NCBI GenBank assembly: GCA_024276015.1
Contig: JAJRXZ010000020.1
Location: 8,245 to 72,244, forward strand
Length of the DNA stretch: 64,000 bases
Reading direction: 5' to 3'
From: Spirochaetota bacterium
Lineage (GTDB): Bacteria; Spirochaetota; UBA4802; UBA5550
Shown here: positions 4,398 through 54,493 of the stretch, piece after piece
How positions within the stretch are numbered: the stretch's first letter is position 1
Layout of the letters: each line of letters opens with the position of its first letter
Position numbers and translations under genes: made by a program
Notes under the pieces: model-generated
Told to the model about the DNA's origin: nothing
The model's input: the letters and a program-made list of their open reading frames with translations, nothing else
The model's database searches: none

Positions 4398-6475
4398 TAT
4401 GATATGCCCATATCGTTTAATACTTTAACGTATAAGTCGAAATATTCCGAATTTGCAAAATTTTTTATCGTACTCTCCGGAAGTTTTTCAAAGAGGCCGT
4501 CAAGATAGGTTAAGAGTTTCTTAAGATTCATCTGCTTGTCTTCGGGAAATTCTTTTATAAATCTGTCAACGTCGCTGTTGTCTTCAAGAATAACAATATT
4601 GTCGGTAATGTCCTGAATTTCTTCGTCAGACGGGTCATCTTCAATGGATTTATCTTCTGTGATAAATGCTTCCTGTTCAATTATTTCAAAGTCCTTCTCT
4701 TCATGAAGGATATCCGGAGATCCGATTCCAGCATCTTCTTCTTTATGTTCTGCTTCTTCAATTATTTCGAATCTGTTTTCTTTGAATATTCTGTCAGCAG
4801 CTTCTACTTCCTCTTCAAAGTGTTTTTCTCTTTCCGAATCGTTCTCGTATTTTGCATCGTCATGGACTTCTTTCCCATAAAGGCGTTTAATTTCATTTAT
4901 ATCTTCTTCAAAAACCAGCGCGTTCGTTGACGAGAGATCCTCTTCAATTGAATTTTTATCTTCTTCTGAGAGGCTTCGACTGTCCGGAGTCAGATAGTTG
5001 ATGAATTTTTCTTTAATTTTTGAAAGGTCAATTTTGCCAAAATCGGATTTGATCAATTCATATTCTTTTTCAAGATCGATATGGGAATATTCTTCATGGA
5101 ATAATCTTTCTTCAATGTTATCTATTTCATTAAGGCTTAATCCGAAAAGTTCAATTGCTTTGGATATCTTTTTTTCATCATCCTCTTCTTTGCCAAGATA
5201 GAGGCTGTCTATCTCTTTGATATAATCGCTGTAATCGTCGCCAATAATGGCGTTCTCTATGAAGTCTAATTCGGAATCTCTGTATTTATATTCATCATCT
5301 TCAAAGTCGAGCCAGAGCTCTTTGTATTTATCATCGCTTTGGGTTAAAATGGCTGCCAGTTCCGGATCTTCTCCCGACACATCTATTTTATCCTCTGTCA
5401 GGATTTTAGGTTTGCCTTCAACAATATCGACTATATCTGAAGTAATTTTTTCCAGTTCGTCCTCTTCAAACAATTTTGTTTTTTCACTCTTCTCTTTGTA
5501 TAGAGATTCATCGTCAAAGAAGAGCACATTTTCTTTTCCCGCGGCAATTTTCCGAAGATTTTCCGGGAGAGTTTCCGTTTTAACTTCAACTTCGGATTCG
5601 GGATCTTCATGGGGCTTATCTTTCTGAGGCTGGAATTCATCTGAAACAGCTTCATCAATTTTAGGTTCTTCAATAGTTTCTTCTATTTCAGACGCTTCAA
5701 TATTGTTAAGCTCCGATTCTTCCGCATCCGGTTTCGTATCGGATCTAATATCGGGTTCAGGTTCGGGTTCAGGGTCTTTTTTCTGAATACTTTTTTCTTT
5801 TTCAGAAAGATTGGGCCCGCTCTTTACTTCGGCCTTTGGAGATTTTTCATCGGTTTTTTCGGATAATTCTGTTTCTGCAGTTATAGTATCATCACTTTTA
5901 TCAATGGTATCCTCTTTTAAAGGAATAAGGTCGAATTCTTCCAGACCTAATATCAGGTCATCCTCGGTGAGGAATAAAATGTCTTCATTTGCAATTGCTT
6001 CTGCTTCTTTCAAGTCTATGTTTCCTATGTCGTTAATATTAAAGTCTTCAGGTAATTTATCTATCATACCTTCGGGAATATTAATTTTTATTTCAGAAGT
6101 TTTGCCGGTTTTAGTGTCCTCTATGTTTTGATCTTCTCTGTTTCCCGGCGTTTCTTTATTATTTTCCTTTATTGAATCTTCCCGGTCTTCTGTATTATCC
6201 ATTGCCGCTTCAGACAGATCCTTCTGAACCGGACTGTCCTTTTGCTTAATTGCGCTTTCTTCCGATGTTGACTCTTCGGCTGCATTATAGGGATCATCCT
6301 TATCTCTTTCCGATTCTTCGCTGTGATGGCCTTCTCCGGATACGAAGTCCTGATCATTTATAGTAATATCTTCTTCTGTAAAATTATTACGGGTAATTGT
6401 GTCAGTCTTTATATCAGAATCTTCAAAGATATCCCTGTGAATATCATTTATATTATTCTCCTTGATCTCTTTCAT
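4397..6475 (-). CDS. Poly-acidic protein (692 aa, extremely D/E-rich, low complexity), hypothetical
   Basis: Long minus-strand ORF. D+E are dense throughout, with runs such as PEPEPEPD. It is translationally coupled to the GAF/GGDEF-like gene downstream. I did not recognise any catalytic domain. Confidence 0.55.
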   Translation of the reverse strand: MKEIKENNINDIHRDIFEDSDIKTDTITRNNFTEEDITINDQDFVSGEGHHSEESERDKDDPYNAAEESTSEESAIKQKDSPVQKDLSEAAMDNTEDREDSIKENNKETPGNREDQNIEDTKTGKTSEIKINIPEGMIDKLPEDFNINDIGNIDLKEAEAIANEDILFLTEDDLILGLEEFDLIPLKEDTIDKSDDTITAETELSEKTDEKSPKAEVKSGPNLSEKEKSIQKKDPEPEPEPDIRSDTKPDAEESELNNIEASEIEETIEEPKIDEAVSDEFQPQKDKPHEDPESEVEVKTETLPENLRKIAAGKENVLFFDDESLYKEKSEKTKLFEEDELEKITSDIVDIVEGKPKILTEDKIDVSGEDPELAAILTQSDDKYKELWLDFEDDEYKYRDSELDFIENAIIGDDYSDYIKEIDSLYLGKEEDDEKKISKAIELFGLSLNEIDNIEERLFHEEYSHIDLEKEYELIKSDFGKIDLSKIKEKFINYLTPDSRSLSEEDKNSIEEDLSSTNALVFEEDINEIKRLYGKEVHDDAKYENDSEREKHFEEEVEAADRIFKENRFEIIEEAEHKEEDAGIGSPDILHEEKDFEIIEQEAFITEDKSIEDDPSDEEIQDITDNIVILEDNSDVDRFIKEFPEDKQMNLKKLLTYLDGLFEKLPESTIKNFANSEYFDLYVKVLNDMGIS

Positions 6476-31025: not shown

Positions 31026-31805
31026 ATGGAAAGGACGGCCAAGATTTTAACATTGTCGATTATTATAGGAGTTCTGGTCCTTTTTCTCGGCAATGGAACC
31101 CTCGAATTAATTGCACAGCCGGCTGCAGGCAAAAAAGGCGGGGGAACAACCACCAAAAGCAAAAAGAAACAGGATGGCTTAGTCGTTGACTGGTTAAATG
31201 ATTTTGAAGCCTGTGAGGACTGGAGAGCAATTTCTACATGCCCTATTGGTGAGACCAAAATTCGAAAAATTCCCGGAAAACCGAGACCGGTAAATGCCGA
31301 AGGAAAGTTGATCAATGAGAAGGGTGAGCCCGGTGAATTTGCAAATGAAATAGTTGATGAAAACGGATTAACTCATAAGAACGAGTATGTACTGGGTGTG
31401 AAAACTTATTTTCTTGAGAGAGGATTTGACAGAGTTGAAGTCTTTCCGCCTAATGAATATATTATAAGAGGAAAAGCCAGAGAGATGAAAGTCTGGGTTC
31501 TGGGAAGAAAATTCCGCCATACTCTCTTTGTCAAACTAAGGGATTACAGAGGGAGGATCCATAAAATTAAAATCGGAAGACTTGATTTCTGGGGATGGAA
31601 AGAATTGTCCGTAATTATTCCCGGCTGGCTGCCTCAGTCAACCAGTTATGCCGTTCTTGATAAAAATCTACACTTTGTATCTTTTTATGTTGAAAGTGAC
31701 AAGTATGAGGTCCCTGGCACTTTTTATTTTTATCTGGACCAGTTCAGGGTTAGCACCGATCTGTCAGAATACTCAGGTGATGAAACAATACAGGATACAT
31801 GGTAA
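31026..31805 (+). CDS. FlaA-like protein (flagellar filament outer-layer / sheath family of spirochetes), paralog 1
   Basis: 259 aa with a signal peptide. The conserved core MKVWVLGRKFRHTLFVKLRDYRGRIHKIKIGRLDFWGWKELSVIIP...YFYLDQFRV resembles FlaA-family blocks as I recall them. It is a clear paralog of the next gene. Confidence 0.5.
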   Translation: MERTAKILTLSIIIGVLVLFLGNGTLELIAQPAAGKKGGGTTTKSKKKQDGLVVDWLNDFEACEDWRAISTCPIGETKIRKIPGKPRPVNAEGKLINEKGEPGEFANEIVDENGLTHKNEYVLGVKTYFLERGFDRVEVFPPNEYIIRGKAREMKVWVLGRKFRHTLFVKLRDYRGRIHKIKIGRLDFWGWKELSVIIPGWLPQSTSYAVLDKNLHFVSFYVESDKYEVPGTFYFYLDQFRVSTDLSEYSGDETIQDTW

Positions 31806-31865
31806 AATATGATGACTATATTAAATTTGGAAATTTTAAGGGAATGTTAAGAAGGGAGGCTTACA

Positions 31866-32750
31866 ATGGTTAGTTTTATAAAAAGACTGGTATTGATTAC
31901 ACTGTGTCTTAATATCATAGTTTTGGTGAGTATTCCCAAAAATGCTGAATCTAAGATTGTAACCAATGTGCCGTCTGATATGAGTGGAGAAGAACTGAAG
32001 GCGCTCGTAATAGAAGATTTTGAAAAAGCAACAGTTGGAGGGGACGGGTGGATCATTAAATCAACTCCAAGACAATTTAAAAAGGCCGAGACTTCAAAAA
32101 AGTTAAAAATGAAAAATCCGGTTCCTGCCCTTGAATTAAAGCTTGTAAAGGGGAAACCCAATGCCATGGTTGTTGAGGAATGGTCATTAACGGGTCAGGG
32201 AAAAGTTAAAGAGAAGTGTCTTGGCGTTCATTTTAAATTCAGATATCCGGGATTCAATTCCGTCCATATTTTGCCTCCGAAAGAGCTGGACTGGAGAGAG
32301 AAAAAACCGGCTTATACATATCAGCCCAGCACTAATAAAAGTATTCAGGAAAGAGGCATACAATTGCCGGGCAGAGCAAGAGGCATCTCTCTGTGGGTGC
32401 ATGCAAGAGGAAGACCCTATACGCTGGAAGTATGGATAAAAGACTACAAAGGCAATACCCATGTCTTGCCCTTCGGTTCTATCAATTTTGTGGGCTGGAG
32501 GCCCATGAAAGTATATATACCGACAACGATACCTCAAAAAGCAACATCCTATCCGGTGACAAGGATCACAAAAATAACCAGATTTGTGATCAGGGCAATG
32601 CCGGATGCAGTTCCGGGAGATACTTACGTGTTTTTTGATCAGTTAAAAGTTTTAACAGATACATACGAAGTTAACTTTGATGGTTCCGATCTCCATAAGG
32701 CTTTTGAGAAAGGATCGTCAAGCAGCAGCGGTAAAAAAGGGACAAGATAA
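31866..32750 (+). CDS. FlaA-like protein, paralog 2
   Basis: 294 aa with a signal peptide. ISLWVHARGRPYTLEVWIKDYKGNTHVLPFGSINFVGWRPMKVYIP...YVFFDQLKV aligns block by block to paralog 1. Confidence 0.5.
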   Translation: MVSFIKRLVLITLCLNIIVLVSIPKNAESKIVTNVPSDMSGEELKALVIEDFEKATVGGDGWIIKSTPRQFKKAETSKKLKMKNPVPALELKLVKGKPNAMVVEEWSLTGQGKVKEKCLGVHFKFRYPGFNSVHILPPKELDWREKKPAYTYQPSTNKSIQERGIQLPGRARGISLWVHARGRPYTLEVWIKDYKGNTHVLPFGSINFVGWRPMKVYIPTTIPQKATSYPVTRITKITRFVIRAMPDAVPGDTYVFFDQLKVLTDTYEVNFDGSDLHKAFEKGSSSSSGKKGTR

Positions 32751-32875: not shown

Positions 32876-35578
32876 ATGACTGACGCAAAAGTAATGGATA
32901 AACTTAATTCGCTTTTTAAAGAAGAACAGTGGGGGAGAATTGAACCGAAGGATATTGGTACCTCGAAATTTAAGATTCTCGATGATCTTTTTAATTCAAT
33001 TGTTTCAGAAGATCTCATCAGCGAAACTTATGATATATGCAAAAAGCATATTGAAGAAAACAGAGATTCAATAACTGCAATGTATTTAATGGGGTTGATC
33101 GGTTACCACAGGGACAATATTGAAGATTCCATTATGCTGAGAAAACTTATTGATATTTTTATTGATAATCATAAATGGGCTGTTGTTGAAATAATTTCAG
33201 AGAAGATCCTTGAATATGGCGAGAGCAGTATTGCCCTGAGAGCGCTGGCTATGAGCCTTGAGAGACTGGGAAGAAGTAAAGACGCAATCCCTGTTCTTGA
33301 GAATCTTCTTAAGATAGACAGGTTTGATGCGGAAGTATCGAAGAAACTTTCTCTTGCGATCATTGACGAAAACCCGGAAAAAAGTATTCAATATATGAAA
33401 CTTTCAATTGAAGGTTTTATCAAAAACAATGAGTTTGACGAAGTAATAAATCTCTGGAATAAACTTGTTTCCGTATCGTGGGAAGATACTTCTTTTTTTG
33501 ACAGAGTTGAAAGAATGCTTGTTGATGCGAGACATACCGAATTGGTATCCACTCTGTTGAAAACGCTGCTGAATAAATACAAAGAAGAAGAGAATGTGGA
33601 TTACTCCATTGAACTGCTGAAAAAGATCTTAACATACAGACCTGCCGATTCTCATGCAAGAAGGGAACTCATTAAACTATATACTATAAAATACGGCAGT
33701 CATTCTCAATTTAAACAATTCTTAAAATTGTCGAAACTTGAGGATTTCCGTTCTCATGTTAAATATGCCATTATGGATTTTGAGAAAAACATTGTCTTTG
33801 ATAAGGGAAATTATGTTTTTCATAAGTCCTGGAAACTTGGAAAGATCGTTGATATTGAGAGTGAATTCTTAACGATTGATTTTATCGACAAAACCGGCCA
33901 TAAAATGTCCATCGGAATGGCTCTGCAGTCATTAACGCCCATAAATAAAGAACATCTCTATGTGATTGAATTTGAAGATACGGAAATGATAAAAACTCTT
34001 TTTGAAGATGATTTTATGCAGTTTTTTCAGATCCTTGTGAAGTCTTACGGAGGCCAAATTACCTTATCGGATATTAAACACGAACTTATTCCCAAGTTTG
34101 TGAAAGAAAAGGATTGGGCAAAGTGGTGGAGTAAGGCAAGAACAAAGATCAAAAAGGATCCTCTTTTCGGCGTCTCGGATAAGAGAAAAGACCTGATCTA
34201 TATGAGGGATAAACCTCTGACTTTTGCCGATGAGCTTCTCGGAAATTTTATTAAAACCGAATCGTTCAGTGAGAAGCTTGATATTGCAATTGAGTTTATC
34301 AATAATATTACTAAAAGCGAAGGGGCAAAAGTTGTCCAGTATTTTATCGATTATTTTCTGGATGAAGTGAAGGGCAAGTCCGAAACAAGGCAGGTTTTGT
34401 CATACTTTATATTAAAAGATCTTGCCGAATTTACCGATACGTCAAAGTTAAACCTTGATTCAATCAGGTCTAAAGTTCTTCATTTTATCAAAGGAAGCAA
34501 TGAACTCAATTTAATTTCAATTAAAATAAGTTCTTATGATTATAAAAAGCAGTTCGTTAATCTGATCATGGAATCCCGCGATGACTGGACTGAAGTGGTT
34601 TCACAGATACTCTTTGAGATCCCGGTGAGGATACATAAGTTCATAATCAATGTTCTCATCAGAGCGCACGCCTATGGAATAATTAACAGGTTTATTGACA
34701 ATGTTACAACCGGTTCAAGGCAGTATCCTGAGGTCTTTATATGGGCAGCAAAGAACATTCTTAATAAAACATGGGATTATGACTGGCTTGACTATTCAAA
34801 ATCCGCTTTGATCATTGCCTATTTCAGACTGATGAATGAACTGAAAAAGATCGAAACGGACAGCAACAGGCTCAAGAATATGACAATTGATATTCTTTTC
34901 TCCAATGACGAATTTGCTCTGAGGGAAATTGTCAGGGAATTTGACAGTAACTTTCTCAGTAAAATATACGATCTTGTCAGTAATGTCTCTTACATTGAAG
35001 AGGGGCAGGTCGATAAAGTGCTGGAAATTATCAAAGAGAAGTATCCCGGGTTTAAAGTTGGCCAGACCGGCTCCTCGGAAGAGGCGGAGTCGGATTTTGA
35101 GAAGCTCATTGTTACTCAAAAGGGATATGACAGGAAGAAAGCCGAACTGGAGAGACTTGTTAATGTTGAGATGATCGATCTGTCAAAGGAACTGGCAAAG
35201 GTTTCCGAAGTCTCGGGCGATCTGAGGGAAAATGTTGAATATACTGCACTGATGGAAAAGCAGGCTATATTAAAAATGGCAATTTCAAGGCTGGATAATG
35301 ATATCAAAAAAGCGGATATCCTCAATGTTGAGAAAATATCAACCGAATGCGTTAATATTGGCACCAAAGTTAAATTTAAGGATTTAAAAACCGGAGAAGT
35401 GAATAGTTATTCAATACTTGGGCCCTGGGATGCGGATTTTGAATTGAAAATATTGTCGTACCGCTCTCCCATTGCCAAGGCGTTACTTGGCAGTAAGGTA
35501 AATGACGAAGTGGAAATCAGGATCAATGATGAGAATAAGCGTTACAAAATTATTTCTATTGAAAAATGCAGTCTTTAA
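32876..35578 (+). CDS. greA: Transcript-cleavage factor GreA-family protein with a ~750-aa N-terminal extension
   Basis: 900 aa. The last ~150 aa match GreA: a coiled-coil (GYDRKKAELERL...SGDLRENVEYTALMEKQAILKMAISRLDNDIKKADIL) and an FKBP-like C-domain (IGTKVKFKDLKTGEVNSYSILGPWDADFELKILSYRSPIAKALLGSKVNDEVEI). The N-terminal 750 aa are helical-repeat-like and of unknown function. Confidence 0.8.
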   Translation: MTDAKVMDKLNSLFKEEQWGRIEPKDIGTSKFKILDDLFNSIVSEDLISETYDICKKHIEENRDSITAMYLMGLIGYHRDNIEDSIMLRKLIDIFIDNHKWAVVEIISEKILEYGESSIALRALAMSLERLGRSKDAIPVLENLLKIDRFDAEVSKKLSLAIIDENPEKSIQYMKLSIEGFIKNNEFDEVINLWNKLVSVSWEDTSFFDRVERMLVDARHTELVSTLLKTLLNKYKEEENVDYSIELLKKILTYRPADSHARRELIKLYTIKYGSHSQFKQFLKLSKLEDFRSHVKYAIMDFEKNIVFDKGNYVFHKSWKLGKIVDIESEFLTIDFIDKTGHKMSIGMALQSLTPINKEHLYVIEFEDTEMIKTLFEDDFMQFFQILVKSYGGQITLSDIKHELIPKFVKEKDWAKWWSKARTKIKKDPLFGVSDKRKDLIYMRDKPLTFADELLGNFIKTESFSEKLDIAIEFINNITKSEGAKVVQYFIDYFLDEVKGKSETRQVLSYFILKDLAEFTDTSKLNLDSIRSKVLHFIKGSNELNLISIKISSYDYKKQFVNLIMESRDDWTEVVSQILFEIPVRIHKFIINVLIRAHAYGIINRFIDNVTTGSRQYPEVFIWAAKNILNKTWDYDWLDYSKSALIIAYFRLMNELKKIETDSNRLKNMTIDILFSNDEFALREIVREFDSNFLSKIYDLVSNVSYIEEGQVDKVLEIIKEKYPGFKVGQTGSSEEAESDFEKLIVTQKGYDRKKAELERLVNVEMIDLSKELAKVSEVSGDLRENVEYTALMEKQAILKMAISRLDNDIKKADILNVEKISTECVNIGTKVKFKDLKTGEVNSYSILGPWDADFELKILSYRSPIAKALLGSKVNDEVEIRINDENKRYKIISIEKCSL

Positions 35579-35670
35579 AATAAGAATTAAGCTTTATTCC
35601 AAGAAATATTATTTAATTATACTACTTTTATTTGACAAAATATGATAGCTTAAATTAATTAAAAACAGAT

Positions 35671-35754
35671 GCCGCGATGGCGGAATTGGTAGACGCGCTA
35701 GGTTCAGGGTCTAGTGAGCAATAGCTTGTGAGGGTTCGACTCCCTCTCGCGGCA
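35671..35754 (+). tRNA. tRNA-Leu (anticodon CAG)
   Basis: I folded it by hand. Acceptor stem GCCGCGA/TCGCGGC, D-arm GCGG..CGC, anticodon stem CTAGG/TCTAG with loop TTCAGGG (anticodon CAG), a long variable arm, T-arm GAGGG-TTCGACT-CCCTC, and discriminator A. CCA is not encoded. Confidence 0.85.
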
Positions 35755-36053
35755 TATTCATTGACACCTTCATTTTCAGGGCTTTCATGCCTCTGATATT
35801 TATTTAAGATGAACTGCCTGTATATTTATGCGGATCTTCGATTTTAATTAAAGAAGTGAAGCCTAAAATGCATTGAAGAATATTGAGAAGAGTTCCGAAA
35901 TATTATAGTATACCGATCATCATTGAAAATTTCTATATCAATGAATCGGTATATGATCTGATCAGGGTTTTGTCCTTTTTAAAGGGACAAAATCGATGCT
36001 TTTTGATATAACTAATATTATGCTTATATTTTTTTATGTAAACAGGGGCGGAT

Positions 36054-36506
36054 ATGGATAATAAATTTCAATATTCGGATATAAAAAAAACTAAGGAGGA
36101 GATCTTATTTGCCATTAAAGAAAGAGTAAATGAGATCACTTCCGGTGATATTCAAAATCCCTTATATCTTAAAGGCGCTGCGGTTTGTGATACTGCAAAA
36201 TCGGTTTCCGGCAGTGTTAAGTATTTCGATATTCAGTGCATTTTTTATGACGAAAGAGGCAGGCTTTGCGGTGATCTGCTGGGTATTGAAAACAAGAGAG
36301 AGAAGAATATTATATTCGGCAGGCTGATTGAAGAGTTTGATATAGAGGCATTGAGGACTATTTTAAACTGTCTCTACGTCAGAAACCGGTTCTATAATAA
36401 AAGCGGCAATGTGGAAATTCAAGGTAATATTAAAAATAGGATTTTGTCTAAAAGGTTTTCACTTAAAAGCTTATTTGCCGGTCAGATCAGATCTTCAAGT
36501 TTATAG
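36054..36506 (+). CDS. Hypothetical protein
   Basis: 150-aa ORF immediately downstream of tRNA-Leu. No recognisable domain. Confidence 0.4.
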   Translation: MDNKFQYSDIKKTKEEILFAIKERVNEITSGDIQNPLYLKGAAVCDTAKSVSGSVKYFDIQCIFYDERGRLCGDLLGIENKREKNIIFGRLIEEFDIEALRTILNCLYVRNRFYNKSGNVEIQGNIKNRILSKRFSLKSLFAGQIRSSSL

Positions 36507-36511
36507 AGATC

Positions 36512-36874
36512 ATGATTGAAAAAGATAAATATGATGAGATGATGGTTCAGATTGAGAATCGTATTTTTGATGTGCAGATATTGTTGTGCCGTTTTATCAC
36601 CGCAATTATGGAAGAGTTAAATGTAACAGAGTATGAGCTGGATGGTTCTTTTCCATTCATAAGAGATGACGGATCTTTGGTAATATGTACAGAGAAAATT
36701 ATCTACGACAATGAAACCGAAGATCTGATGATTATCTCTAAGAACTATCAGAAAAAAATAAATTGGACTGAACTTGATATTTCAATACTGCATCAAATTG
36801 CAAATGAAATTCATATGAAATACGTTTCAGACAGAATATTAAAGGAATTATCATCAAAGGAAGAAGTGCATTGA
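36512..36874 (+). CDS. Hypothetical protein
   Basis: 120-aa ORF, 5 bp after the previous gene and probably co-transcribed. No recognisable domain. Confidence 0.4.
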   Translation: MIEKDKYDEMMVQIENRIFDVQILLCRFITAIMEELNVTEYELDGSFPFIRDDGSLVICTEKIIYDNETEDLMIISKNYQKKINWTELDISILHQIANEIHMKYVSDRILKELSSKEEVH

Positions 36875-37559: not shown

Positions 37560-39371
37560 TTATCTATTCTTGTACTTGCTGCTGAACATCCTGGTTATCG
37601 GGTGATCATGAGGCATATTTTCCGGTAAAGGATTATCTGTTCTTCGGATTTTGTTTCCCTGGATAGGAAGCACCTCAAGTATGTCAGAATAGGATATCCA
37701 CTGCGGTAAGTCCAGTTTCTTGCCTTCAGGGTGATTCCACGTCTTGTACCAGAATATTTCGTTAACAGATTTTCTCTGTTCCATGGCCTGTATTTCGGCG
37801 ATCATTGCGTCCTGGATGCTTTTAGCAGAAATTGCAATTACCGAGATCATCTTGTTTTCTCCCGGTAATTGCGGCGCCAGAATATCCCAGAATCCGTATC
37901 CCCAGCCCTTTTCAAGCTGCTCGCTGCTGTCCATTAATTCAGCAGAGTGAATCGGGCCTGTCAGGCAGAATGCTCCGTATTTCAGATCCTCATCTTTCGG
38001 GATTTCCGTAGTCCCGTCGAGATGTATGGAATTTAAGCCTGCCTGAATCGCTTCTCCTGCAGCATGTTCTGCCATATCAACAGGAATATCAGAATTTTTT
38101 AAACCGTTAAGATCAATATAGATGAAAACCATTTTATGGGCGTCTTCCTGAGGCTTTAATACTTTTTTGCCGAGTCCTGTAACCAGTTCTGCAAGGGTTT
38201 TATATGAATTGAAATCCGTATTTTTATCAATGGAACCGTCTTTTAAATTATTTTCGTATGCATCGATTATTTCCTTTGTGGCGTTTGTTATGCCTTCGTC
38301 AATTCTTTCTCTGATCCGTATCAGGATCTTTTTCCCCTGAGGAGTGTTCCCGTCAACTGTAATGGTTTTAATGATATCATTGAGACCGGCACTGTCTATG
38401 ACCGCATTAAATGATCTTTCATACCTGTTAATGACTTCCGGAGGAACCGATCGTGAAAAATCGACATTTCTTCTTTCGCTTTTTCTTTCAATTAATTTTG
38501 CAGCAGCCAGATCCATCATGCCTTTGTCAAATCGTTTTCTATGAGCAGGCTGTTTAAAACCTATCTGAATAATAGCGGAAATTCTTCCTCCTCGATCCAT
38601 ACCGGGAAGAATGACCATTTTTTTCAGGTTTTCATATCCTGCTCTGTTTTCGTTCCTGATCAGATCCGTTGAGAGTGAGTGCTTAATTACATTCACTCCT
38701 ATATGGCCGCCCAGGACTCCGCCGATCGCGCTTTTTATATTGCTCTCAAATGTGCCCATATCAATCTGCTCAAGACTGAGAAGGCTTGGAGGAATCGGCT
38801 TTCTTCTGAGTTTCAGCATGTCCACAAAAGCGCCTCTGTAACCTGTGTTTATCAATATAACTGTTGCAAAGGCATTCTCCACAAGCTTTTCATTTTTGAC
38901 CATTCTGTTAAAACTGCCGATGATTTCGAAAATATCTTTGTTAAATGTCCAGTCAAAGTACATACCCTGCCAGTGTTGTGAATATGTGGCATTGGCTGCC
39001 TTCAATCCGCAGCTTATTACCTGCGCAAGGCTGTATTTGCTGGGGATGTCGGTTATTTCAAAGGAAGTAAATTCCCGGCCGTTGTATTGCCCCGATCCCC
39101 ATATCTCTCTTATTGCTCTGTTTTCTTCTTCTGTGATATTCAGAGGGTATAATATAAAGGGGATTTGACAGTTCCCGGGATGCTTTTCAGGATACCACTG
39201 AGATCTGTGTATTCCTTCTGTCCCTTCGGGGGATACGATCCTTCCTTTCGGTTTTCCCAGAATTCCGGGATTATATTCTGATGACATTTGTGACCTCCAA
39301 TAGTATCTGAATGAGAATTTTTCGGATCGATTTCTGCAAAAGATCCGTTTTTTATACAGAATATGCAGCAA
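37560..39371 (-). CDS. Conserved-looking protein of unknown function (~575-600 aa)
   Basis: Long ORF with a globular, non-repetitive composition. Gly-rich segments IGGVLGGHIGVN and ILPGMDRGGRISA could be nucleotide- or phosphate-binding loops. I could not assign a family. The true start may be the internal MSSEYNPG at 39287. Confidence 0.5.
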   Translation of the reverse strand: MLHILYKKRIFCRNRSEKFSFRYYWRSQMSSEYNPGILGKPKGRIVSPEGTEGIHRSQWYPEKHPGNCQIPFILYPLNITEEENRAIREIWGSGQYNGREFTSFEITDIPSKYSLAQVISCGLKAANATYSQHWQGMYFDWTFNKDIFEIIGSFNRMVKNEKLVENAFATVILINTGYRGAFVDMLKLRRKPIPPSLLSLEQIDMGTFESNIKSAIGGVLGGHIGVNVIKHSLSTDLIRNENRAGYENLKKMVILPGMDRGGRISAIIQIGFKQPAHRKRFDKGMMDLAAAKLIERKSERRNVDFSRSVPPEVINRYERSFNAVIDSAGLNDIIKTITVDGNTPQGKKILIRIRERIDEGITNATKEIIDAYENNLKDGSIDKNTDFNSYKTLAELVTGLGKKVLKPQEDAHKMVFIYIDLNGLKNSDIPVDMAEHAAGEAIQAGLNSIHLDGTTEIPKDEDLKYGAFCLTGPIHSAELMDSSEQLEKGWGYGFWDILAPQLPGENKMISVIAISAKSIQDAMIAEIQAMEQRKSVNEIFWYKTWNHPEGKKLDLPQWISYSDILEVLPIQGNKIRRTDNPLPENMPHDHPITRMFSSKYKNR

Positions 39372-41722: not shown

Positions 41723-44700
41723 ATGGCTGATAAAGAAACAACAATTGAGTATACTCAGGAAGAGCTTAATGAAATTGACAGGATAATAGACGTTGTCAAC
41801 CGGGAAATTTCCCCGCCCTTTACGGATGATGCTCTGTCTCAGGAGGAGAAAGGGGCCGAAGAAGAAGGATCGGATTCCGATTTTCTGGATGAAATAACTC
41901 CGGGCGAAATCCCGATTGACGAGCCTATAGGCGAACCTGATGATCTCGACCTCCCGTCGGGCGATCTGGATATTGTAACCGGTGAAGATGTTGAAGGGAT
42001 CGAAATGCAGCAAGATATATCTCCGGCAGGGGACGCTGCCGCAGAAATTCCTTCCGAGGAGATAACCGGACTTGAACCGGACTTGCTTGAAAGCGTTACC
42101 GGCGTTGATGAAATGGAGGCAATTCCCGAGGAGATAACAGACGTGCCCGGTGAACCCGCGGGAGAGGCTCGGGACGAGGAAATTCTCGATATTTCCGATA
42201 TAATCGAAGAAGTCGAGGAACCCGGCGTTCAGGAAGAAGACCTTCCGGATCTCCTTGATGAACTTGCGCCGTCTGCCGAGCCCGAAGAGATTGAACCTCT
42301 TGATGAAATGGGCGAGATAGATTCGAAGGAAGAACAGATCCCGGAGATTGATGAGATAAGCGATTTGGAAGGGGAGGAGGCTCACGAGCCCGCATCTCCA
42401 GAAGAAGCCTCTCCGCTTGATCAGTTAAATGCCCTGACCGAGGACGAACCGGAGTCCATTGATCTTCAGGACTATGCGGATGATCAGTTTGTAGGAGGCG
42501 GTGAAATCCCCGCAGTTGAAGATGCTGAACCCGAAGTTCCCGAAGAGCAGCCTGACGACGCAATGATCTCAGAGCCTGAAGCTCTTGCTGAGGATGTACC
42601 TGAAGAAGTAACGCTTGAAAAGGATGAGGATGCGGATATCCCCGATTTATCGGAGCTCCCTGTTGAGGATATCAGTGAGATCCCTGAAGCGGAGGATATT
42701 GATATTCCTGAAATAGAACTTGACGCTGTTTCGGAATCTGCAGGCGATGCGGAAACTCCTACTGATGAAGATTTCATGCCGCCTGAAAGCACCGAGGCCC
42801 AGGCTTATGACGAAGGTGTTGATATGGATATTCAGGAACCGGAAGATATTGACGTAGCTGATATCAGCGAGTCAGTTGAAGATGTTCCGGGCGGAGTTGT
42901 GGATATATCGGATGCAGGTGACGAGCCCCTTGTTATTGAGCCTCTTGACGAAGATGAAGGCATTATCGAAAAGGCGGAAGACGGTCCTGTTGAGACAGAG
43001 GAAGCTCTTGAACTGAGCGATAATGAACTGAAGAAACTGAAGAAGGCCATACTTCTCTTTAATCCTGCCTTGATTAAAGAGATCAAGAATACAATAATCA
43101 ACGACCTCCTGCCTGCTGATGAGATAAGACAGATGATCGATATGATCTTGTCGGGCAGGCCCGAAGATAATATTCACAGGTTTCTTGAAAAGAAACTTAA
43201 AAAGAAGATAGATCTTCTTGATGAGGCGGCTGTGCCGGGCAGAAAAGTTATTACTTCAAGACCCGAATATACAAGAGAAGGAAGAGAAAGGCAGAAGAGA
43301 ATTGTCAGATTAACAAAGATTTTTGGCAGCGCAGCAGCTGCCGCTTTTGTTCTCACAATAGTGGGATATCAATTTGTTTATAAGCCGATCATGGCCAAGA
43401 AAATAATAAACGAGGGAGCTGCAATAATTTTAAGCAGCGGCGATTATCAGAAAAAACACAAAGACTATAATAAAGCGGAGCTTCTCTTCAAACAAGTAAA
43501 CGAAGATTATGTTAAGAACTTTATTTACGGGTATAATGCTTATGGAAGAGCTTACTTTGAAAAAGGGCAGTATGAGCGCTCCCTGAAGAAACTTGACGAA
43601 GCATATAAAATTGACAGTACCAATGTGGATACGCTGAATCAACTGGGCTATTTCTATTCAAAAGTTCCTGCTGAAAATTACAAATTCTTAAAAGAGAGCG
43701 TTAATAAAAAATATTACAAAGAGAAGAAACTTTCACCTGCTGAAAAAACACAGTTAAATATTGCCGTCGATTTTTTTCGCAGAGCTCTCATTATAGAAAA
43801 AGACAACATTACTTCATTGATCGGAATAGGCAATGCTTATTTCTATCAGGGGCAATATTTGAAAGCAAAGAAGTACTACGAAGATATTTTGAGAGTTGAC
43901 AGGGATTCCGTGATCGGTTATTCGGGGCTCTTAAATCTCTATATAGAAAGGAATGCATTTCCTCAGGCTGCATCCATATTTAACGATCTCAGAGAAAAAG
44001 AGATGCTTCAGGACATGCCGTCGGCTCTTCTTGGCAAATTAGCTGAATATTTTCTCAGCAAAAGAAGAACCAAACAGAGTAATGTAAGGATCGATTACGG
44101 CGTAAGATCACCGAGACTGAAAGATATTGATGATAATACATATCCGGCAGTAAATACGGTTCTGATGGCCCTGAATAAGAGGGATCCGAAATATCCTCCT
44201 CTCCAGCTTCACTTCGCAAATCTTAACAGAGCTCAGAAGAATAATTATGCAGAGAAGAGATATATTGAAAGAGCGCTTAAACTCTCTCCCGATTATTTTG
44301 ATGCTCTGAATTTTATGGGAGAATATTATTATAATGCAAGAGAACCTGTAAATGCCTATAGGTATTTAAACAGAGCTGTAAGATCTTACGGAAATCAGCC
44401 CTCTTTTACGAGAGAAGATTTTTATAAAGGTCTTTCTCAAATAGGTAAAACATATTTATTGCTTGGAAATATCTTTTATTATTTTTTCGATAGAGTAAGC
44501 TTCAGATTCGGCAGTCTGGAAGATGATCTTGTTGACAGCGAGGCTGATAAACTGGCAAATTATAATGTTGCCAGAGATAAATATGAGAAGGCGCTGAGTG
44601 AAAATTACAGATCTCCGGAGCTTCATTATAATCTTGGCAGAATATATTATCTGAATAAACTTTATAAAAAAGCTCTCAATCAATGGCTTAATCTCTACGA

Positions 44701-45112
44701 AGAGTTTGTAAATAGTCCGGAGCTGATGTTTGCTCTTGGCAATGCTTTTTATCATCTCGGAAATTTTGAAGCGGGTAAGGGCGAATACCTTAAACTTATT
44801 TCCGTATTGGAACGGGATGCCGAATCGATAAAATTTGTCGAAGCAAGCAGAAAGGGGCACATCAAACTTTTCGGCACTCTGTCGTCGGCGTATAATAATC
44901 TGGGTGCTATTTATCAGCTTCAGAAGGATGAATCAAGAAGCGGTTTAAGTTACTGGAAAGCAGTTGACTATGCGAAGAGGCTCGGCATTGAAAATCATTT
45001 TGCCAGAGTAAATCTGGCCAGATCCTACAGGCCAAACAGGAAAGTCGAACCCGTAATAGATGAGAATATCCCTTACAGCATTGACATATTCAGAGAAGAT
45101 ATGAGACAATAG
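41723..45112 (+). CDS. Giant protein: ~400-aa poly-acidic disordered region, a TM segment, then a TPR-repeat array
   Basis: 1129 aa. Residues ~30-430 are D/E/P-rich low complexity. A hydrophobic helix (IFGSAAAAAFVLTIVGYQFVY) sits near residue 535. The C-terminal 550 aa hold multiple TPR-like repeats (GNAYFYQGQYLKAKKYYEDIL...). Confidence 0.6.
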   Translation: MADKETTIEYTQEELNEIDRIIDVVNREISPPFTDDALSQEEKGAEEEGSDSDFLDEITPGEIPIDEPIGEPDDLDLPSGDLDIVTGEDVEGIEMQQDISPAGDAAAEIPSEEITGLEPDLLESVTGVDEMEAIPEEITDVPGEPAGEARDEEILDISDIIEEVEEPGVQEEDLPDLLDELAPSAEPEEIEPLDEMGEIDSKEEQIPEIDEISDLEGEEAHEPASPEEASPLDQLNALTEDEPESIDLQDYADDQFVGGGEIPAVEDAEPEVPEEQPDDAMISEPEALAEDVPEEVTLEKDEDADIPDLSELPVEDISEIPEAEDIDIPEIELDAVSESAGDAETPTDEDFMPPESTEAQAYDEGVDMDIQEPEDIDVADISESVEDVPGGVVDISDAGDEPLVIEPLDEDEGIIEKAEDGPVETEEALELSDNELKKLKKAILLFNPALIKEIKNTIINDLLPADEIRQMIDMILSGRPEDNIHRFLEKKLKKKIDLLDEAAVPGRKVITSRPEYTREGRERQKRIVRLTKIFGSAAAAAFVLTIVGYQFVYKPIMAKKIINEGAAIILSSGDYQKKHKDYNKAELLFKQVNEDYVKNFIYGYNAYGRAYFEKGQYERSLKKLDEAYKIDSTNVDTLNQLGYFYSKVPAENYKFLKESVNKKYYKEKKLSPAEKTQLNIAVDFFRRALIIEKDNITSLIGIGNAYFYQGQYLKAKKYYEDILRVDRDSVIGYSGLLNLYIERNAFPQAASIFNDLREKEMLQDMPSALLGKLAEYFLSKRRTKQSNVRIDYGVRSPRLKDIDDNTYPAVNTVLMALNKRDPKYPPLQLHFANLNRAQKNNYAEKRYIERALKLSPDYFDALNFMGEYYYNAREPVNAYRYLNRAVRSYGNQPSFTREDFYKGLSQIGKTYLLLGNIFYYFFDRVSFRFGSLEDDLVDSEADKLANYNVARDKYEKALSENYRSPELHYNLGRIYYLNKLYKKALNQWLNLYEEFVNSPELMFALGNAFYHLGNFEAGKGEYLKLISVLERDAESIKFVEASRKGHIKLFGTLSSAYNNLGAIYQLQKDESRSGLSYWKAVDYAKRLGIENHFARVNLARSYRPNRKVEPVIDENIPYSIDIFREDMRQ

Positions 45113-53119: not shown

Positions 53120-54493
53120 CTATACTTTTATACCGCCCACTTTACCGATACTCCTGAGCAAATAAAATCCGTATACTCCCAGATCCTTGCCGTATTTTGA
53201 ATAGATCCTTTTTAATATAAAAGCACAGGCGAATTTTATCATATCAGTGCTTCGTATAACCCGGAATATTGTACTGAATTTTTCTTTAAAATAGATAATA
53301 AATATTTCAGTTATAAAGTTGTTCAGTTCATTCTTCAGTCCATCGGTAAAAAACATATTAAAAGGGATTTTTTTATCGGGATGGATGTATTTCTCCGCAA
53401 AGGTTTTAATCCCGTAATCGGTGTGAATTAGTTTTTCCACAACCGTAATGATATCGTTTTTTTCATGGATCAGCCTGTCCGGGTCATCAGTATATATTTT
53501 GTAGATGGATGTTGCTTTTTCATGGATTGTACTATCGGGGATATCATCCAATATATCTTTTTTGCTGCTGCCGAAAATGTCATCTAATATGGCGTCAATT
53601 TTTTTGCCGTATTGCCTTCCAAAGGGGGTTGCCAGCATCCTGTCATTGTATTCATCGGTTCCGGCATCCGCTGCCTCGGAATTGATCCTGTTTTTTTTAT
53701 GTTCCGATTCGTTTTCGCTTGCCTTTGAACTTTCGGGATTATCATTGCTTACTTCGGATTTACGTGTTTTATACTTTTCCATATAGTTCAGTGTTTCGGT
53801 GATCCTGCCGTTTATTATGGCAAGGGAGCCGATCTTTTTACCGGATACTAACAGCAGCTTGGTATTGCGGATTTCGCTGTCGTCGAAAAAGAATTTTCTG
53901 TATGTTCTGTCATTCCACCAGGCCTGCTGATCCATCAGGATAACATAAGCGTCGTGCAGAGAGGCTGCAATGAATCCATGCTGTGTTTTTGTGGATACGG
54001 TTACATTATCCTTTGATAATTCTTTATATATTTTCACATGGTTTTTTAATTCGTTTAAGGGCATTGCCATAGAAGTGTTATTCTTATTCATATTTATATT
54101 GTATTGCTGAGTTTGGTGGCTTAATCTGTTTTCAATAATTGTCCTGATGCTGATGTAAGATGAAATATTGTTGGGAAAAGCTGTGTCGGAAAATATATTT
54201 GAGATATATTCAATATCCAGATCTTTTAAACCTTTAAGAGCAATATTGTATATTTTTGAGACAGCCTGAATATCGATCAGAAGTCCAATAATTTTGTTTA
54301 TCTGCGTACTGTTGAGATCGTATTTGTAATTTATCAGACTGGCCAGTTTGTTCTCAGGTATGATATCCGCATAATCGGTTAACTTATTGATAATTTTCCC
54401 CATTGTTTCACTGTCAATAAATCGGGAGATATTTTCAATATTTGCCAGTGTCTTTGAATCGGCTAATGTTGTTTCATCCATTTTTGATCCCAT
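53120..54493 (-). CDS. Hypothetical protein
   Basis: 457-aa ORF with an acidic, low-complexity middle region (NDNPESSKASENESEHKK). No family assignment. Confidence 0.45.
   Translation of the reverse strand: MGSKMDETTLADSKTLANIENISRFIDSETMGKIINKLTDYADIIPENKLASLINYKYDLNSTQINKIIGLLIDIQAVSKIYNIALKGLKDLDIEYISNIFSDTAFPNNISSYISIRTIIENRLSHQTQQYNINMNKNNTSMAMPLNELKNHVKIYKELSKDNVTVSTKTQHGFIAASLHDAYVILMDQQAWWNDRTYRKFFFDDSEIRNTKLLLVSGKKIGSLAIINGRITETLNYMEKYKTRKSEVSNDNPESSKASENESEHKKNRINSEAADAGTDEYNDRMLATPFGRQYGKKIDAILDDIFGSSKKDILDDIPDSTIHEKATSIYKIYTDDPDRLIHEKNDIITVVEKLIHTDYGIKTFAEKYIHPDKKIPFNMFFTDGLKNELNNFITEIFIIYFKEKFSTIFRVIRSTDMIKFACAFILKRIYSKYGKDLGVYGFYLLRSIGKVGGIKV

What the first reader, a model, noticed from the sequence alone, without database searches (positions are those of the whole stretch)
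32876..35578. 900-aa GreA with a 750-aa N-terminal extension of unknown function
Only the last ~150 residues are a bona fide GreA: the coiled-coil finger plus the FKBP-like domain. The preceding 750 residues are helical-repeat-like and have no recognisable domain. I recall comparably oversized GreA proteins in Treponema and Borrelia. This feature plus the FlaA-like pair is the basis for the spirochete-like lineage guess. The function of the extension is undescribed, and it could tether transcript cleavage to another process.
Basis: partly seen in the sequence, partly recalled or inferred. Interest (0 to 1): 0.5.

Follow-up and report, generated by a model that had tools for sequence, protein, structure and literature searches.

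The report
Long spirochete GreA with RNA-polymerase-docking extension
This is a genuine 900-residue version of the transcript-cleavage factor GreA, an already catalogued spirochete family, whose large N-terminal part contains two small domains resembling known RNA-polymerase-binding modules and so probably anchors the factor on the polymerase.

Summary
The 900-aa ORF at 32876-35578 (+) is real and intact. Residues 745-900 are a complete GreA with the catalytic acidic tip (D782, E785). The protein matches NCBIfam NF011309 (906-position "long GreA") end to end and above its curated cutoff, and hundreds of ~900-aa orthologues exist in Spirochaetota, including Treponema. It is therefore a new member of a known kind.

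The extension is not a featureless helical repeat. A confident AlphaFold model divides it into TPR-like repeats (1-306), a Tudor-like β-barrel (307-360), a winged helix (361-448), a second helical domain (449-722) and a disordered acidic linker (723-744). Newer Pfam releases name parts of it HTH_GRAD and GRAD_C.

The barrel matches the RNA-polymerase-binding Tudor domains of UvrD, PcrA and CarD in sequence profile and in fold. It conserves residues at the positions PcrA uses to bind polymerase. The winged helix resembles the polymerase δ-subunit N-terminal domain in fold only.

The extension also occurs as a stand-alone ~730-aa protein.

Best reading, inferred and not tested: the extension docks on RNA polymerase and keeps a flexibly tethered Gre module at the secondary channel. 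I found no experimental study of the extension.

The parts
32876..35578 (+). Long greA coding sequence (900 aa plus stop): a GRAD-GreA fusion protein
   Evidence: ORF list. NCBIfam NF011309 matched end to end, 755.2 bits against a cutoff of 714. More than 120 homologues of about 900 aa at 58-69% identity.
32876..33793 (+). Residues 1-306: TPR-like helical-repeat domain (17 helices). Its most conserved stretch is residues 21-40.
33794..33955 (+). Residues 307-360: Tudor-like β-barrel of the UvrD/PcrA/CarD (RNA-polymerase-interacting) type. Signature residues are H316, W319, G322, F336, H342 and M344.
33956..34219 (+). Residues 361-448: winged-helix module, presumably the region covered by Pfam HTH_GRAD (family boundaries not seen). 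The recognition helix is basic and Trp-rich (W414, W417, W418, K/R422).
34220..35041 (+). Residues 449-722: second all-helical domain, presumably the region covered by Pfam GRAD_C (family boundaries not seen). No specific structural relative was found.
35042..35107 (+). Residues 723-744: poorly conserved, acidic, disordered linker between GRAD and the Gre module
   Evidence: pLDDT below 50 for residues 730-741. Mean identity 0.35 against 0.59-0.67 for the folded modules. Net charge -2 to -11.
35108..35320 (+). Residues 745-815: GreA N-terminal antiparallel coiled coil, the finger that enters the secondary channel
35216..35242 (+). Residues 781-789 (GDLRENVEY): acidic tip of the coiled coil. 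D782 and E785 correspond to E. coli GreA D41 and E44.
   Evidence: Alignment to 1grj. D782 and E785 are invariant in the 31-sequence family alignment. They are 98% and 95% conserved across 98 GRAD-linked GreA modules.
35321..35575 (+). Residues 816-900: GreA C-terminal globular domain. It carries the signature G849-P-W851-[DE] that is typical of GRAD-linked GreA modules.
   Evidence: Pfam GreA_GreB, E=1.1e-22. W851 is 92% conserved among GRAD-linked GreA modules, while E. coli GreA has Asp at the aligned position.

Best explanation
The gene encodes the spirochete-type long GreA.

Shown by sequence and structure prediction: the C-terminal 155 residues are a complete Gre factor with a coiled-coil finger, a conserved acidic tip and a globular domain. 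It is expected to enter the RNA polymerase secondary channel and stimulate cleavage of backtracked RNA as canonical GreA does.

Inferred: the 722-residue N-terminal part ('GRAD' in recent Pfam) is an RNA-polymerase docking platform. It is an autonomous unit, because it also exists as a stand-alone protein. Its core is a UvrD/PcrA/CarD-type Tudor domain followed directly by a winged helix. The Tudor class binds the polymerase β-subunit lobe region. The winged helix has a basic recognition helix and its nearest structural matches are the δ-subunit N-terminal domain, which sits on the β' shelf/jaw next to the secondary channel. TPR-like and helical scaffolds flank this core.

A disordered acidic linker of about 22 residues then lets the Gre module swing into and out of the secondary channel. 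The result would be a resident, tethered cleavage factor rather than one recruited by diffusion. This is architecturally analogous to eukaryotic TFIIS and to HelD, in which a channel-inserting element is attached to a body docked elsewhere on the polymerase.

For: Selection. The extension is at least as conserved as the Gre module (mean identity 0.63 against 0.59), while the linker is not (0.35).

Autonomy. 13 of 150 cluster representatives are complete GRAD proteins of 721-814 aa without any Gre module. They have no greA within ±10 kb.

Physical association. Borrelia GreA co-purifies with RNAP (PMC7237435).
Against: Nothing here tests binding.

- The query's own Tudor region is below Pfam gathering thresholds: 14.5 bits against 23.9 and 13.1 against 23. 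The assignment rests on family-level profiles and a predicted structure.
- The PcrA lysine K712 is replaced by His in this family.
- UvrD/PcrA Tudor domains also bind partners other than RNAP, such as UvrB (PMC8318588). The target could therefore be a different protein.
- The winged helix has no sequence-level relationship to δ or HARE-HTH. It matches forkhead DNA-binding domains almost as well.
- Inter-domain geometry in the full model is unreliable (pTM 0.43).
- rpoB is not in the window, so the presence of a docking hairpin in this organism's β subunit could not be checked.
- Canonical 158-aa GreA works without any anchor, so the benefit of tethering is conjecture.
Confidence: 0.55

Rival explanations
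1. GRAD is an adaptor that couples backtrack rescue to another machine. The Tudor domain, the TPR region or both would bind a non-polymerase partner, for example UvrB or another protein carrying a β-hairpin docking motif, or the conserved TPR partner protein. Transcript cleavage would then be coordinated with DNA repair or with the resolution of replication-transcription conflicts.
For: The PcrA/UvrD Tudor domain binds the same hairpin motif in UvrB and other partners as in RpoB (PMC8318588). 7egt is a UvrD C-terminal domain complex with another protein's N-terminal domain, and it is the best sequence-profile hit. About 300 residues of TPR-like repeats are a typical protein-protein interaction surface. 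A homologous TPR protein of about 312-383 aa is encoded directly upstream of GRAD genes in six Spirochaetia loci.
Against: No partner is identified in this window, and the upstream TPR partner is absent here. Every characterised bacterial protein of this Tudor class (UvrD, PcrA, Mfd, CarD, RapA) contacts RNA polymerase (PMC5397179). This reading is also compatible with the best explanation rather than exclusive of it.
Confidence: 0.2
2. GRAD is a transcription factor in its own right, acting on initiation or polymerase recycling as CarD or the δ subunit do, with nucleic-acid contact through the basic winged helix. The fusion to GreA would only co-localise two independent activities. GRAD would not exist to serve the Gre module.
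Against: 88 of the 101 complete GRAD-containing representatives are fused to GreA. The fusion is stable across two phyla-level groups, Spirochaetota and PVC, which argues for functional coupling.
Confidence: 0.15
3. GRAD is a regulatory or auto-inhibitory module. It would hold the Gre finger away from the secondary channel until a signal, such as a ligand or partner sensed by the TPR region, releases it.
For: The flexible linker between GRAD and GreA permits large movements. GRAD-linked GreA globular domains carry a family-specific Trp (W851, 92%) that could form an intramolecular contact.
Against: No intramolecular interface is predicted with any confidence (pTM 0.43). The one candidate docking motif in the Gre domain, D-x-x-T-G-E at 836-841, is not conserved (T 26%, G 43%, E 31%). 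The stand-alone form cannot be an auto-inhibitor.
Confidence: 0.08
4. Artefact: two neighbouring genes joined by a sequencing or assembly frameshift, or by a mis-called start.
For: None beyond the unusual length.
Against: The reading frame is continuous. An identical architecture and length occur in hundreds of independent assemblies, including cultured Treponema, Gracilinema and Entomospira. A curated full-length HMM is matched from position 4 to 905.
Confidence: 0.01

Closest known systems
NCBIfam NF011309 (PRK14720), the ~906-aa 'transcription elongation factor GreA' of spirochetes
   Same: End-to-end match (profile positions 4-905) at 755 bits, above the 714-bit cutoff. The domain order and length are the same. 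Treponema, Gracilinema, Sediminispirochaeta and Entomospira orthologues have the same Pfam composition.
   Different: Only about 25-40% identical to the Treponema/Entomospira branch in the extension. It belongs to an uncultured Leptospirales-like clade. In this clade greA follows flaA2-flaA1, not the TPR partner gene seen in Spirochaetia.
NCBIfam NF004969 (PRK06330), 'transcript cleavage factor/unknown domain fusion protein' (718 positions), and other ~720-745-aa forms such as Ca. Brocadia. My assignment of this model to the 715-aa Chlamydia GreA is from memory.
   Same: Homologous from query residue 179 to 896. It has the end of the TPR region, the Tudor domain, the winged helix, GRAD_C and GreA in the same order.
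   Different: It lacks roughly the first 180 residues, including the most conserved N-terminal motif. The query scores 241.7 bits against a cutoff of 697, so it is not a member of that equivalog.
Canonical GreA/GreB (E. coli GreA, PDB 1grj; GreB, 2p4v)
   Different: Canonical factors are about 158 aa with no N-terminal extension. The long form has P850-W851 where E. coli GreA has D-D.
C-terminal Tudor domain of the UvrD/PcrA helicases (PDB 7egs, 7egt, 5dma, 9dqs; Pfam PF21196)
   Same: Same fold at rmsd 1.2-1.8 Å over 47-51 residues. The H-x-x-W-G-x-G ... [K/H]-x-[L/M] pattern coincides with the PcrA residues needed for RNAP binding.
   Different: Here it is internal to a large non-helicase protein, not a C-terminal appendage on a long linker. 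The Lys is replaced by His. The query alone is below the Pfam threshold. The binding partner is untested.
CarD and the Mfd RNAP-interacting domain (Pfam PF02559)
   Different: CarD's second domain is helical rather than a winged helix. CarD and Mfd bind the β1 lobe by β-sheet augmentation, whereas PcrA binds the SI1 hairpin. Which mode applies here, if either, is unknown.
N-terminal domain of the RNA polymerase δ subunit (RpoE) of Firmicutes (PDB 2krc, 7f75, 8x6g)
   Different: No detectable sequence relationship. From my own knowledge, δ is followed by a long acidic tail. The GRAD helix 3 and wing are basic. Forkhead domains match nearly as well.
HelD and eukaryotic TFIIS (architectural analogues, not homologues)
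   Same: A secondary-channel or pore-inserting acidic-tipped element joined to a larger body that docks elsewhere on the polymerase. For HelD see PMC7749167. For TFIIS this is my own knowledge.
   Different: The docking domains and enzymology are unrelated. HelD is an ATPase that dismantles complexes, and TFIIS uses a zinc ribbon.

Membership tests
GreA/GreB transcript cleavage factors | N-terminal antiparallel coiled coil (Pfam PF03449) | tested here: met
   Residues 745-815, E=1.2e-12, 48.3 bits against a cutoff of 24.5. Two long helices at 748-779 and 787-812.
GreA/GreB transcript cleavage factors | C-terminal globular domain (Pfam PF01272) | tested here: met
GreA/GreB transcript cleavage factors | Two acidic residues at the coiled-coil tip (E. 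coli GreA D41 and E44) | tested here: met
   D782 and E785 lie in GDLRENVEY, which aligns to GDLKENAEY of 1grj. Both are invariant in A1 and 98% and 95% conserved in 98 modules.
GreA/GreB transcript cleavage factors | Stimulates endonucleolytic cleavage of backtracked RNA by RNA polymerase | not testable with these tools
   Requires an in vitro transcription and cleavage assay.
GreA/GreB transcript cleavage factors | Stand-alone protein of about 155-165 residues (TIGR01462 and the equivalog models) | tested here: not met
   The protein is 900 aa. TIGR01462 scores 132.5 bits, below its cutoff of 139, and all short-GreA equivalogs are below cutoff.
Long GreA, NCBIfam NF011309 (PRK14720) | Full-length match to the 906-position model at or above 714 bits | tested here: met
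   755.2 bits, E=9.9e-227, protein residues 4-900 against profile positions 4-905.
Long GreA, NCBIfam NF011309 (PRK14720) | Domain composition HTH_GRAD + GRAD_C + GreA_GreB_N + GreA_GreB | tested here: met
   The identical protein P0001 carries PF27167, PF03449 and PF01272 but not PF27371. PF27371 is listed for many but not all close homologues. The local Pfam copy lacks the two GRAD models, so this rests on the database's precomputed hits.
NCBIfam NF004969 (PRK06330), GreA fusion of about 718 positions | Score at or above 697 bits against the 718-position model | tested here: not met
   241.7 bits, aligned to residues 179-896. It is homologous but not a member of this equivalog.
PcrA/UvrD-type Tudor domain (PF21196) and CarD/TRCF RID (PF02559) | Score above the Pfam gathering threshold | tested here: not met
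   For the query, PF21196 scores 14.5 bits against 23.9 and PF02559 scores 13.1 against 23. Other family members reach E=1.4e-4 and 4.7e-5.
PcrA/UvrD-type Tudor domain (PF21196) and CarD/TRCF RID (PF02559) | Five-stranded Tudor-like β-barrel fold | tested here: met
PcrA/UvrD-type Tudor domain (PF21196) and CarD/TRCF RID (PF02559) | Conserved interaction-face residues (PcrA H681, W684, K712, L714) | tested here: inconclusive
   The aligned positions are H316, W319, H342 and M344. Two are identical, L to M is conservative, and K is replaced by H. All are strongly conserved.
PcrA/UvrD-type Tudor domain (PF21196) and CarD/TRCF RID (PF02559) | Direct binding to the RNA polymerase β subunit | not testable with these tools
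This needs a pull-down, HDX-MS or cryo-EM.
RNAP δ-subunit N-terminal domain / HARE-HTH winged helix | Winged-helix fold similar to the δ N-terminal domain | tested here: met
RNAP δ-subunit N-terminal domain / HARE-HTH winged helix | Detectable sequence homology to δ or HARE-HTH | tested here: not met
   The profile search of PDB found no δ hit, and the best hit was a forkhead domain at E=0.27. None of 35 family members hit a HARE-HTH or δ Pfam model. I therefore do not file it as a member.
TPR repeat proteins | Pfam TPR model above the gathering threshold | tested here: not met

The most novel reading that the evidence does not exclude
GRAD is a widespread, experimentally uncharacterised RNA-polymerase accessory factor of Spirochaetota and the PVC group, with about 1,100 sequence clusters. 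It would dock on the β lobe through a UvrD/PcrA-type Tudor domain, using the same face as the repair helicase. It would therefore compete with, or hand over to, UvrD/PcrA and Mfd at stalled polymerases. In most lineages it has captured GreA, which would physically link backtrack rescue to the choice between restart and repair. In Spirochaetia it would work with a dedicated TPR partner encoded directly upstream.
Probability: 0.25. Interest if true: 0.6.

Novelty: new member of a known kind. Interest (0 to 1): 0.35.

Why it matters
Spirochetes and chlamydiae include major pathogens, among them Treponema, Borrelia, Leptospira and Chlamydia. As far as the tools show, the long form is the annotated GreA in these groups, yet the held literature only remarks that it is 'unusually large'.

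Recognising a UvrD/PcrA/CarD-type Tudor domain and a polymerase-δ-like winged helix inside the extension turns 'unknown domain' into a concrete hypothesis that can be tested by mutation. The hypothesis is that H316, W319, H342 and M344 mediate docking on the β subunit.

It also identifies stand-alone GRAD proteins and a conserved TPR partner gene as handles for genetics. For this particular window, however, the gene is an ordinary orthologue of a catalogued family.

Tried and rejected
- **Source contig.** Looking up the window protein in the contig index found no record.
- **AFDB.** The afdb50 fold library was not available. Taxonomic names came from cluster look-ups and a third homology search instead.
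- **Literature.** Several were polluted because 'grea' matched 'great' or 'greater'. No paper on the extension, on 'GRAD', or on a GreA-Tudor link was found. This does not prove that none exists, because subscription journals are not held.
- **Second GreA in the window.** None was found with either the module itself or E. coli GreA as query. The rest of the genome could not be searched.
- **rpoB in the window.** Absent, so the helicase-interaction hairpin could not be examined.
- **Intramolecular Tudor target.** The D-L-K-T-G-E hairpin at residues 836-841 of the Gre domain resembles the PcrA docking motif, but it is not conserved across the family. Rejected.
- **Stand-alone GRAD as a split greA.** Rejected. 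There is no Gre gene within ±10 kb, and the upstream ORF is a TPR protein.
- **Winged helix as HARE-HTH or δ homologue at sequence level.** No support.
- **Rfam scan of the window.** Only a tRNA.
- **Promoter and terminator scans.** Uninformative apart from one hairpin downstream of the tRNA.
Full report
**1. Observation**

The window contains one uninterrupted ORF at 32876-35578 on the + strand. It has an ATG start, encodes 900 aa, and has an AGGA about 8 nt upstream of the start.

The coiled-coil tip reads GDLRENVEY at residues 781-789, against GDLKENAEY in E. coli. D782 and E785, the counterparts of the catalytic D41 and E44, are invariant in the close family. They are 98% and 95% conserved in 98 related GreA modules.

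The window holds no other GreA-like ORF. The coordinates, the length and the C-terminal GreA are therefore confirmed. A frameshift or mis-fusion is excluded by hundreds of independent homologues with the same length and N-terminus.

**2. It is a catalogued family**

NCBIfam NF011309 (PRK14720) is a 906-position model named 'transcription elongation factor GreA'. It matches the protein from residue 4 to 900 at 755.2 bits, above its 714-bit cutoff.

A second model, NF004969 ('transcript cleavage factor/unknown domain fusion protein', 718 positions), aligns to residues 179-896. At 241.7 bits it is far below its 697-bit cutoff.

The 5.8-billion-protein search returned more than 120 proteins of 893-936 aa at 58-69% identity. 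Most are labelled GreA from Spirochaetota MAGs. They carry precomputed Pfam domains that include PF27167 and, in many of them, PF27371. Gene tables returned later give the names as HTH_GRAD and GRAD_C. These families are newer than the local Pfam copy, which is why my own scan showed only weak TPR hits.

All 80 related loci retrieved from species-representative genomes are Spirochaetota or 'Leptospirales' MAGs. A search seeded with the Entomospira orthologue found the same architecture in several other groups:

| Organism | GreA length (aa) |
|---|---|
| Treponema primitia | 898 |
| Gracilinema caldarium | 898 |
| Sediminispirochaeta sp. | 896 |
| Many Treponema sp. MAGs | about 890-915 |

For Borrelia, I could only document that GreA co-purifies with RNA polymerase (PMC7237435).

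**3. Anatomy of the extension**

An AlphaFold2 model built on 31 homologues is confident (mean pLDDT 84.6). Its relative domain placement is not reliable (pTM 0.43). It shows these modules:

| Residues | Module |
|---|---|
| 1-306 | Seventeen helices in TPR-like hairpins |
| 313-356 | Small β-barrel |
| 361-445 | α/β module with a three-helix core and a β-hairpin wing |
| 450-722 | All-helical domain |
| 730-741 | Disordered segment (pLDDT below 50) |
| from ~745 | Gre module |

Mean identity to the query across the family is as follows:

| Module | Mean identity |
|---|---|
| TPR | 0.67 |
| Barrel | 0.64 |
| Winged helix | 0.64 |
| GRAD_C | 0.59 |
| Linker | 0.35 |
| GreA | 0.59 |

The extension is thus under at least as much constraint as the catalytic module, and the linker is a true spacer. 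The linker is also acidic, with net charge -2 to -11.

**4. The barrel is a Tudor domain of the RNA-polymerase-interacting class**

The lead was two sub-threshold Pfam hits on residues ~308-368: CarD_TRCF_RID (E=0.1) and PcrA_UvrD_tudor (E=0.11). I then built a 41-sequence profile of the barrel from diverse representatives (A2). The evidence from it and from the structure model is:

- **PDB profile search.** The five best hits are all C-terminal Tudor domains of UvrD or PcrA helicases: 7egt_B E=2.5e-4, 9dqs_A 0.0095, 5dma_A 0.028, 4c2t_A 0.067 and 1qhh_D 0.17.
- **Per-member Pfam scan.** 28 of 41 members hit CarD_TRCF_RID (best 4.7e-5), 24 hit PcrA_UvrD_tudor (1.4e-4), 20 hit DUF3553 (1.4e-5) and 3 hit the RapA Tudor.
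- **hhalign.** The profile against the Thermus UvrD segment gives 95% probability.

In Geobacillus PcrA, H681, W684, K712 and L714 on one face of the Tudor fold are needed to bind RNA polymerase (PMC5397179). In the profile alignment these positions correspond to H316, W319, H342 and M344. All four are invariant in the close family. In 119 sequences drawn from 50%-identity clusters they are 95%, 76% (plus 10% F/Y), 80% and 79% (plus 16% I/L) conserved.

The query alone does not reach Pfam thresholds. I therefore describe the barrel as a Tudor domain of this class, not as a member of PF21196 or PF02559.

**5. The winged helix**

The δ N-terminal domain binds on the polymerase surface between the β' shelf and jaw. 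It shifts secondary-channel elements when it does so (PMC7749165).

At the sequence level there is no support for homology. The best PDB profile hit is a forkhead domain at E=0.27, and no member hits a δ or HARE-HTH model.

The recognition helix is rich in conserved Trp and basic residues: W414 92%, W417 84%, W418 62% and K/R422 91%. Helix 3 plus the wing carry +4 to +8 net charge in an otherwise acidic protein. Either a contact with polymerase or a contact with nucleic acid is plausible. I cannot decide between them.

**6. The rest of the extension**

**7. Distribution and architectures**

An exhaustive HMMER scan with residues 1-744 against 1.84 billion cluster representatives found 1,092 proteins at E≤1e-3 and 536 at E≤1e-10. 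Among the best 150:

| Architecture | Count | Length (aa) |
|---|---|---|
| Full GRAD + GreA | 56 | 884-989 |
| GRAD with shortened TPR region + GreA | 32 | mostly 700-845 |
| Complete GRAD (all four modules), no Gre module, no acidic-tip motif | 13 | 721-814 |
| Fragments | 49 | - |

One short-TPR cluster is from Candidatus Brocadia (Planctomycetota). This matches the region of the query covered by NF004969.

The stand-alone proteins carry HTH_GRAD and GRAD_C but no GreA Pfam domains. They come from Spirochaetes MAGs and are annotated as hypothetical. They have no greA within ±10 kb. GRAD is therefore an autonomous unit that has been fused to GreA. It is not an elaboration of GreA.

**8. Mechanism**

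Shown:
- an intact Gre module with a conserved catalytic tip;
- a strongly conserved multi-domain extension;
- a flexible linker;
- a Tudor domain whose conserved face coincides with the PcrA RNAP-binding face;
- a winged helix;
- the autonomy of GRAD.

From the literature:
- every characterised bacterial Tudor domain of this class (UvrD/PcrA, Mfd, CarD, RapA) binds the polymerase β subunit;
- the δ N-terminal domain binds the β' shelf/jaw;
- Borrelia GreA co-purifies with RNAP.

Inferred: GRAD docks on the downstream face of the polymerase, with the Tudor on the β lobe and the winged helix on β' or on nucleic acid. The ~22-residue linker then lets the Gre finger enter the nearby secondary channel, which would make GreA a resident subunit-like factor.

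I give this 0.55. The main alternatives are:
- an adaptor to a non-polymerase partner (0.2);
- an independent CarD/δ-like activity merely co-localised with GreA (0.15);
- an auto-inhibitory or regulatory module (0.08).

These are partly compatible with one another.

**9. Context**

greA is preceded on the same strand by two FlaA-family genes. The FlaA2-like gene is at 31026-31805 and the FlaA1-like gene at 31866-32750 (Pfam FlaA E about 1e-24; both are below the Leptospira equivalog cutoffs). This order is conserved in 76-77 of 80 related loci, down to 46% GreA identity.

A tRNA-Leu(CAG) lies at 35670-35755. A 13-bp hairpin followed by a T-run lies at 35966-35994.

In six loci outside this clade, a mutually homologous TPR protein of 312-383 aa is encoded 14-61 nt upstream of the GRAD gene on the same strand. 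The six loci are two stand-alone GRAD genes plus T. primitia, Entomospira, Gracilinema and Sediminispirochaeta. That partner is absent from the Brocadia locus. It is also absent from the window and from the flanks of its 80 relatives.

**10. Verdict**

The protein is a routine orthologue of a curated family, so I rate it a new member of a known kind.

The claim that the extension has no recognisable domain is out of date and partly wrong. What remains open is experimental: nobody in the held literature has tested what the extension does.

The Tudor and winged-helix assignment gives a specific, testable docking hypothesis. I could not find it stated in the papers available to me. The existence of Pfam GRAD entries means others have at least delineated the region.

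Noticed in passing
window 31026-32750 (+), directly upstream of greA; L001-L080: The gene order flaA2-like, flaA1-like, long greA (all on the same strand, with a 125-nt gap before greA) is conserved in 76-77 of 80 related Spirochaetota loci, even at 46% GreA identity. The Entomospira long greA also sits among flagellar genes: fliL to fliP upstream, and Rod-binding and cheW downstream. I do not know whether this is only inherited gene order or co-expression.
   Followed up: partly
L081 8995-9972; L083 9005-9985; L084 4980-5978; L085 4829-5980; L086 2001-2939; L088 125-1075: A conserved TPR-like protein of 312-383 aa is encoded 14-61 nt upstream of GRAD genes on the same strand in six divergent Spirochaetia loci. 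Members are 24-47% identical over their full length, with HMM E-values down to 1e-113. This holds whether or not GRAD is fused to GreA. It is absent from the window, from its 80 relatives and from the Brocadia locus. It is a likely functional partner of GRAD.
   Followed up: partly
P0148, P0160, P0163, P0186, P0189, P0209, P0236, P0260, P0234, P0182; loci L081-L083: Stand-alone GRAD proteins of about 721-740 aa have the TPR, Tudor, winged-helix and GRAD_C modules but no Gre module. They fall into two sequence sub-types with different C-terminal endings and are annotated as hypothetical proteins in Spirochaetes MAGs. I could not determine whether the same genomes also encode a long or a short GreA.
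   Followed up: partly
window 35423-35428 (residues 850-851): GRAD-linked GreA globular domains carry a signature G-P-W-[DE]-[SA]-D, with W851 92% conserved in 98 modules. E. coli GreA has G-D-D-E-A-D at the aligned positions. The Trp might mark a contact specific to the long form.
   Followed up: no
window 35670-35755 (+) and 35966-35994 (+): A tRNA-Leu (anticodon CAG) lies 92 nt downstream of the greA stop. It is followed by a 13-bp stem-loop with a T-run that looks like an intrinsic terminator. greA and the tRNA may share a transcript.
   Followed up: no
window 36054-36506 (+) and 36512-36874 (+): Two adjacent small ORFs of 150 and 120 aa have no Pfam or NCBIfam match. Homologues appear downstream of greA, at variable distance, in about 31-34 of the 80 related loci.
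   Followed up: partly
window 37560-39371 (-), 4397-6475 (-), 53120-54493 (-): Three sizeable ORFs of 603, 692 and 457 aa have no hit in Pfam or NCBIfam at the thresholds used.
   Followed up: no
window 41723-45112 (+): A 1,129-aa multi-TPR protein lies in the most G+C-rich stretch of the window (0.444 against about 0.37 elsewhere).
   Followed up: no
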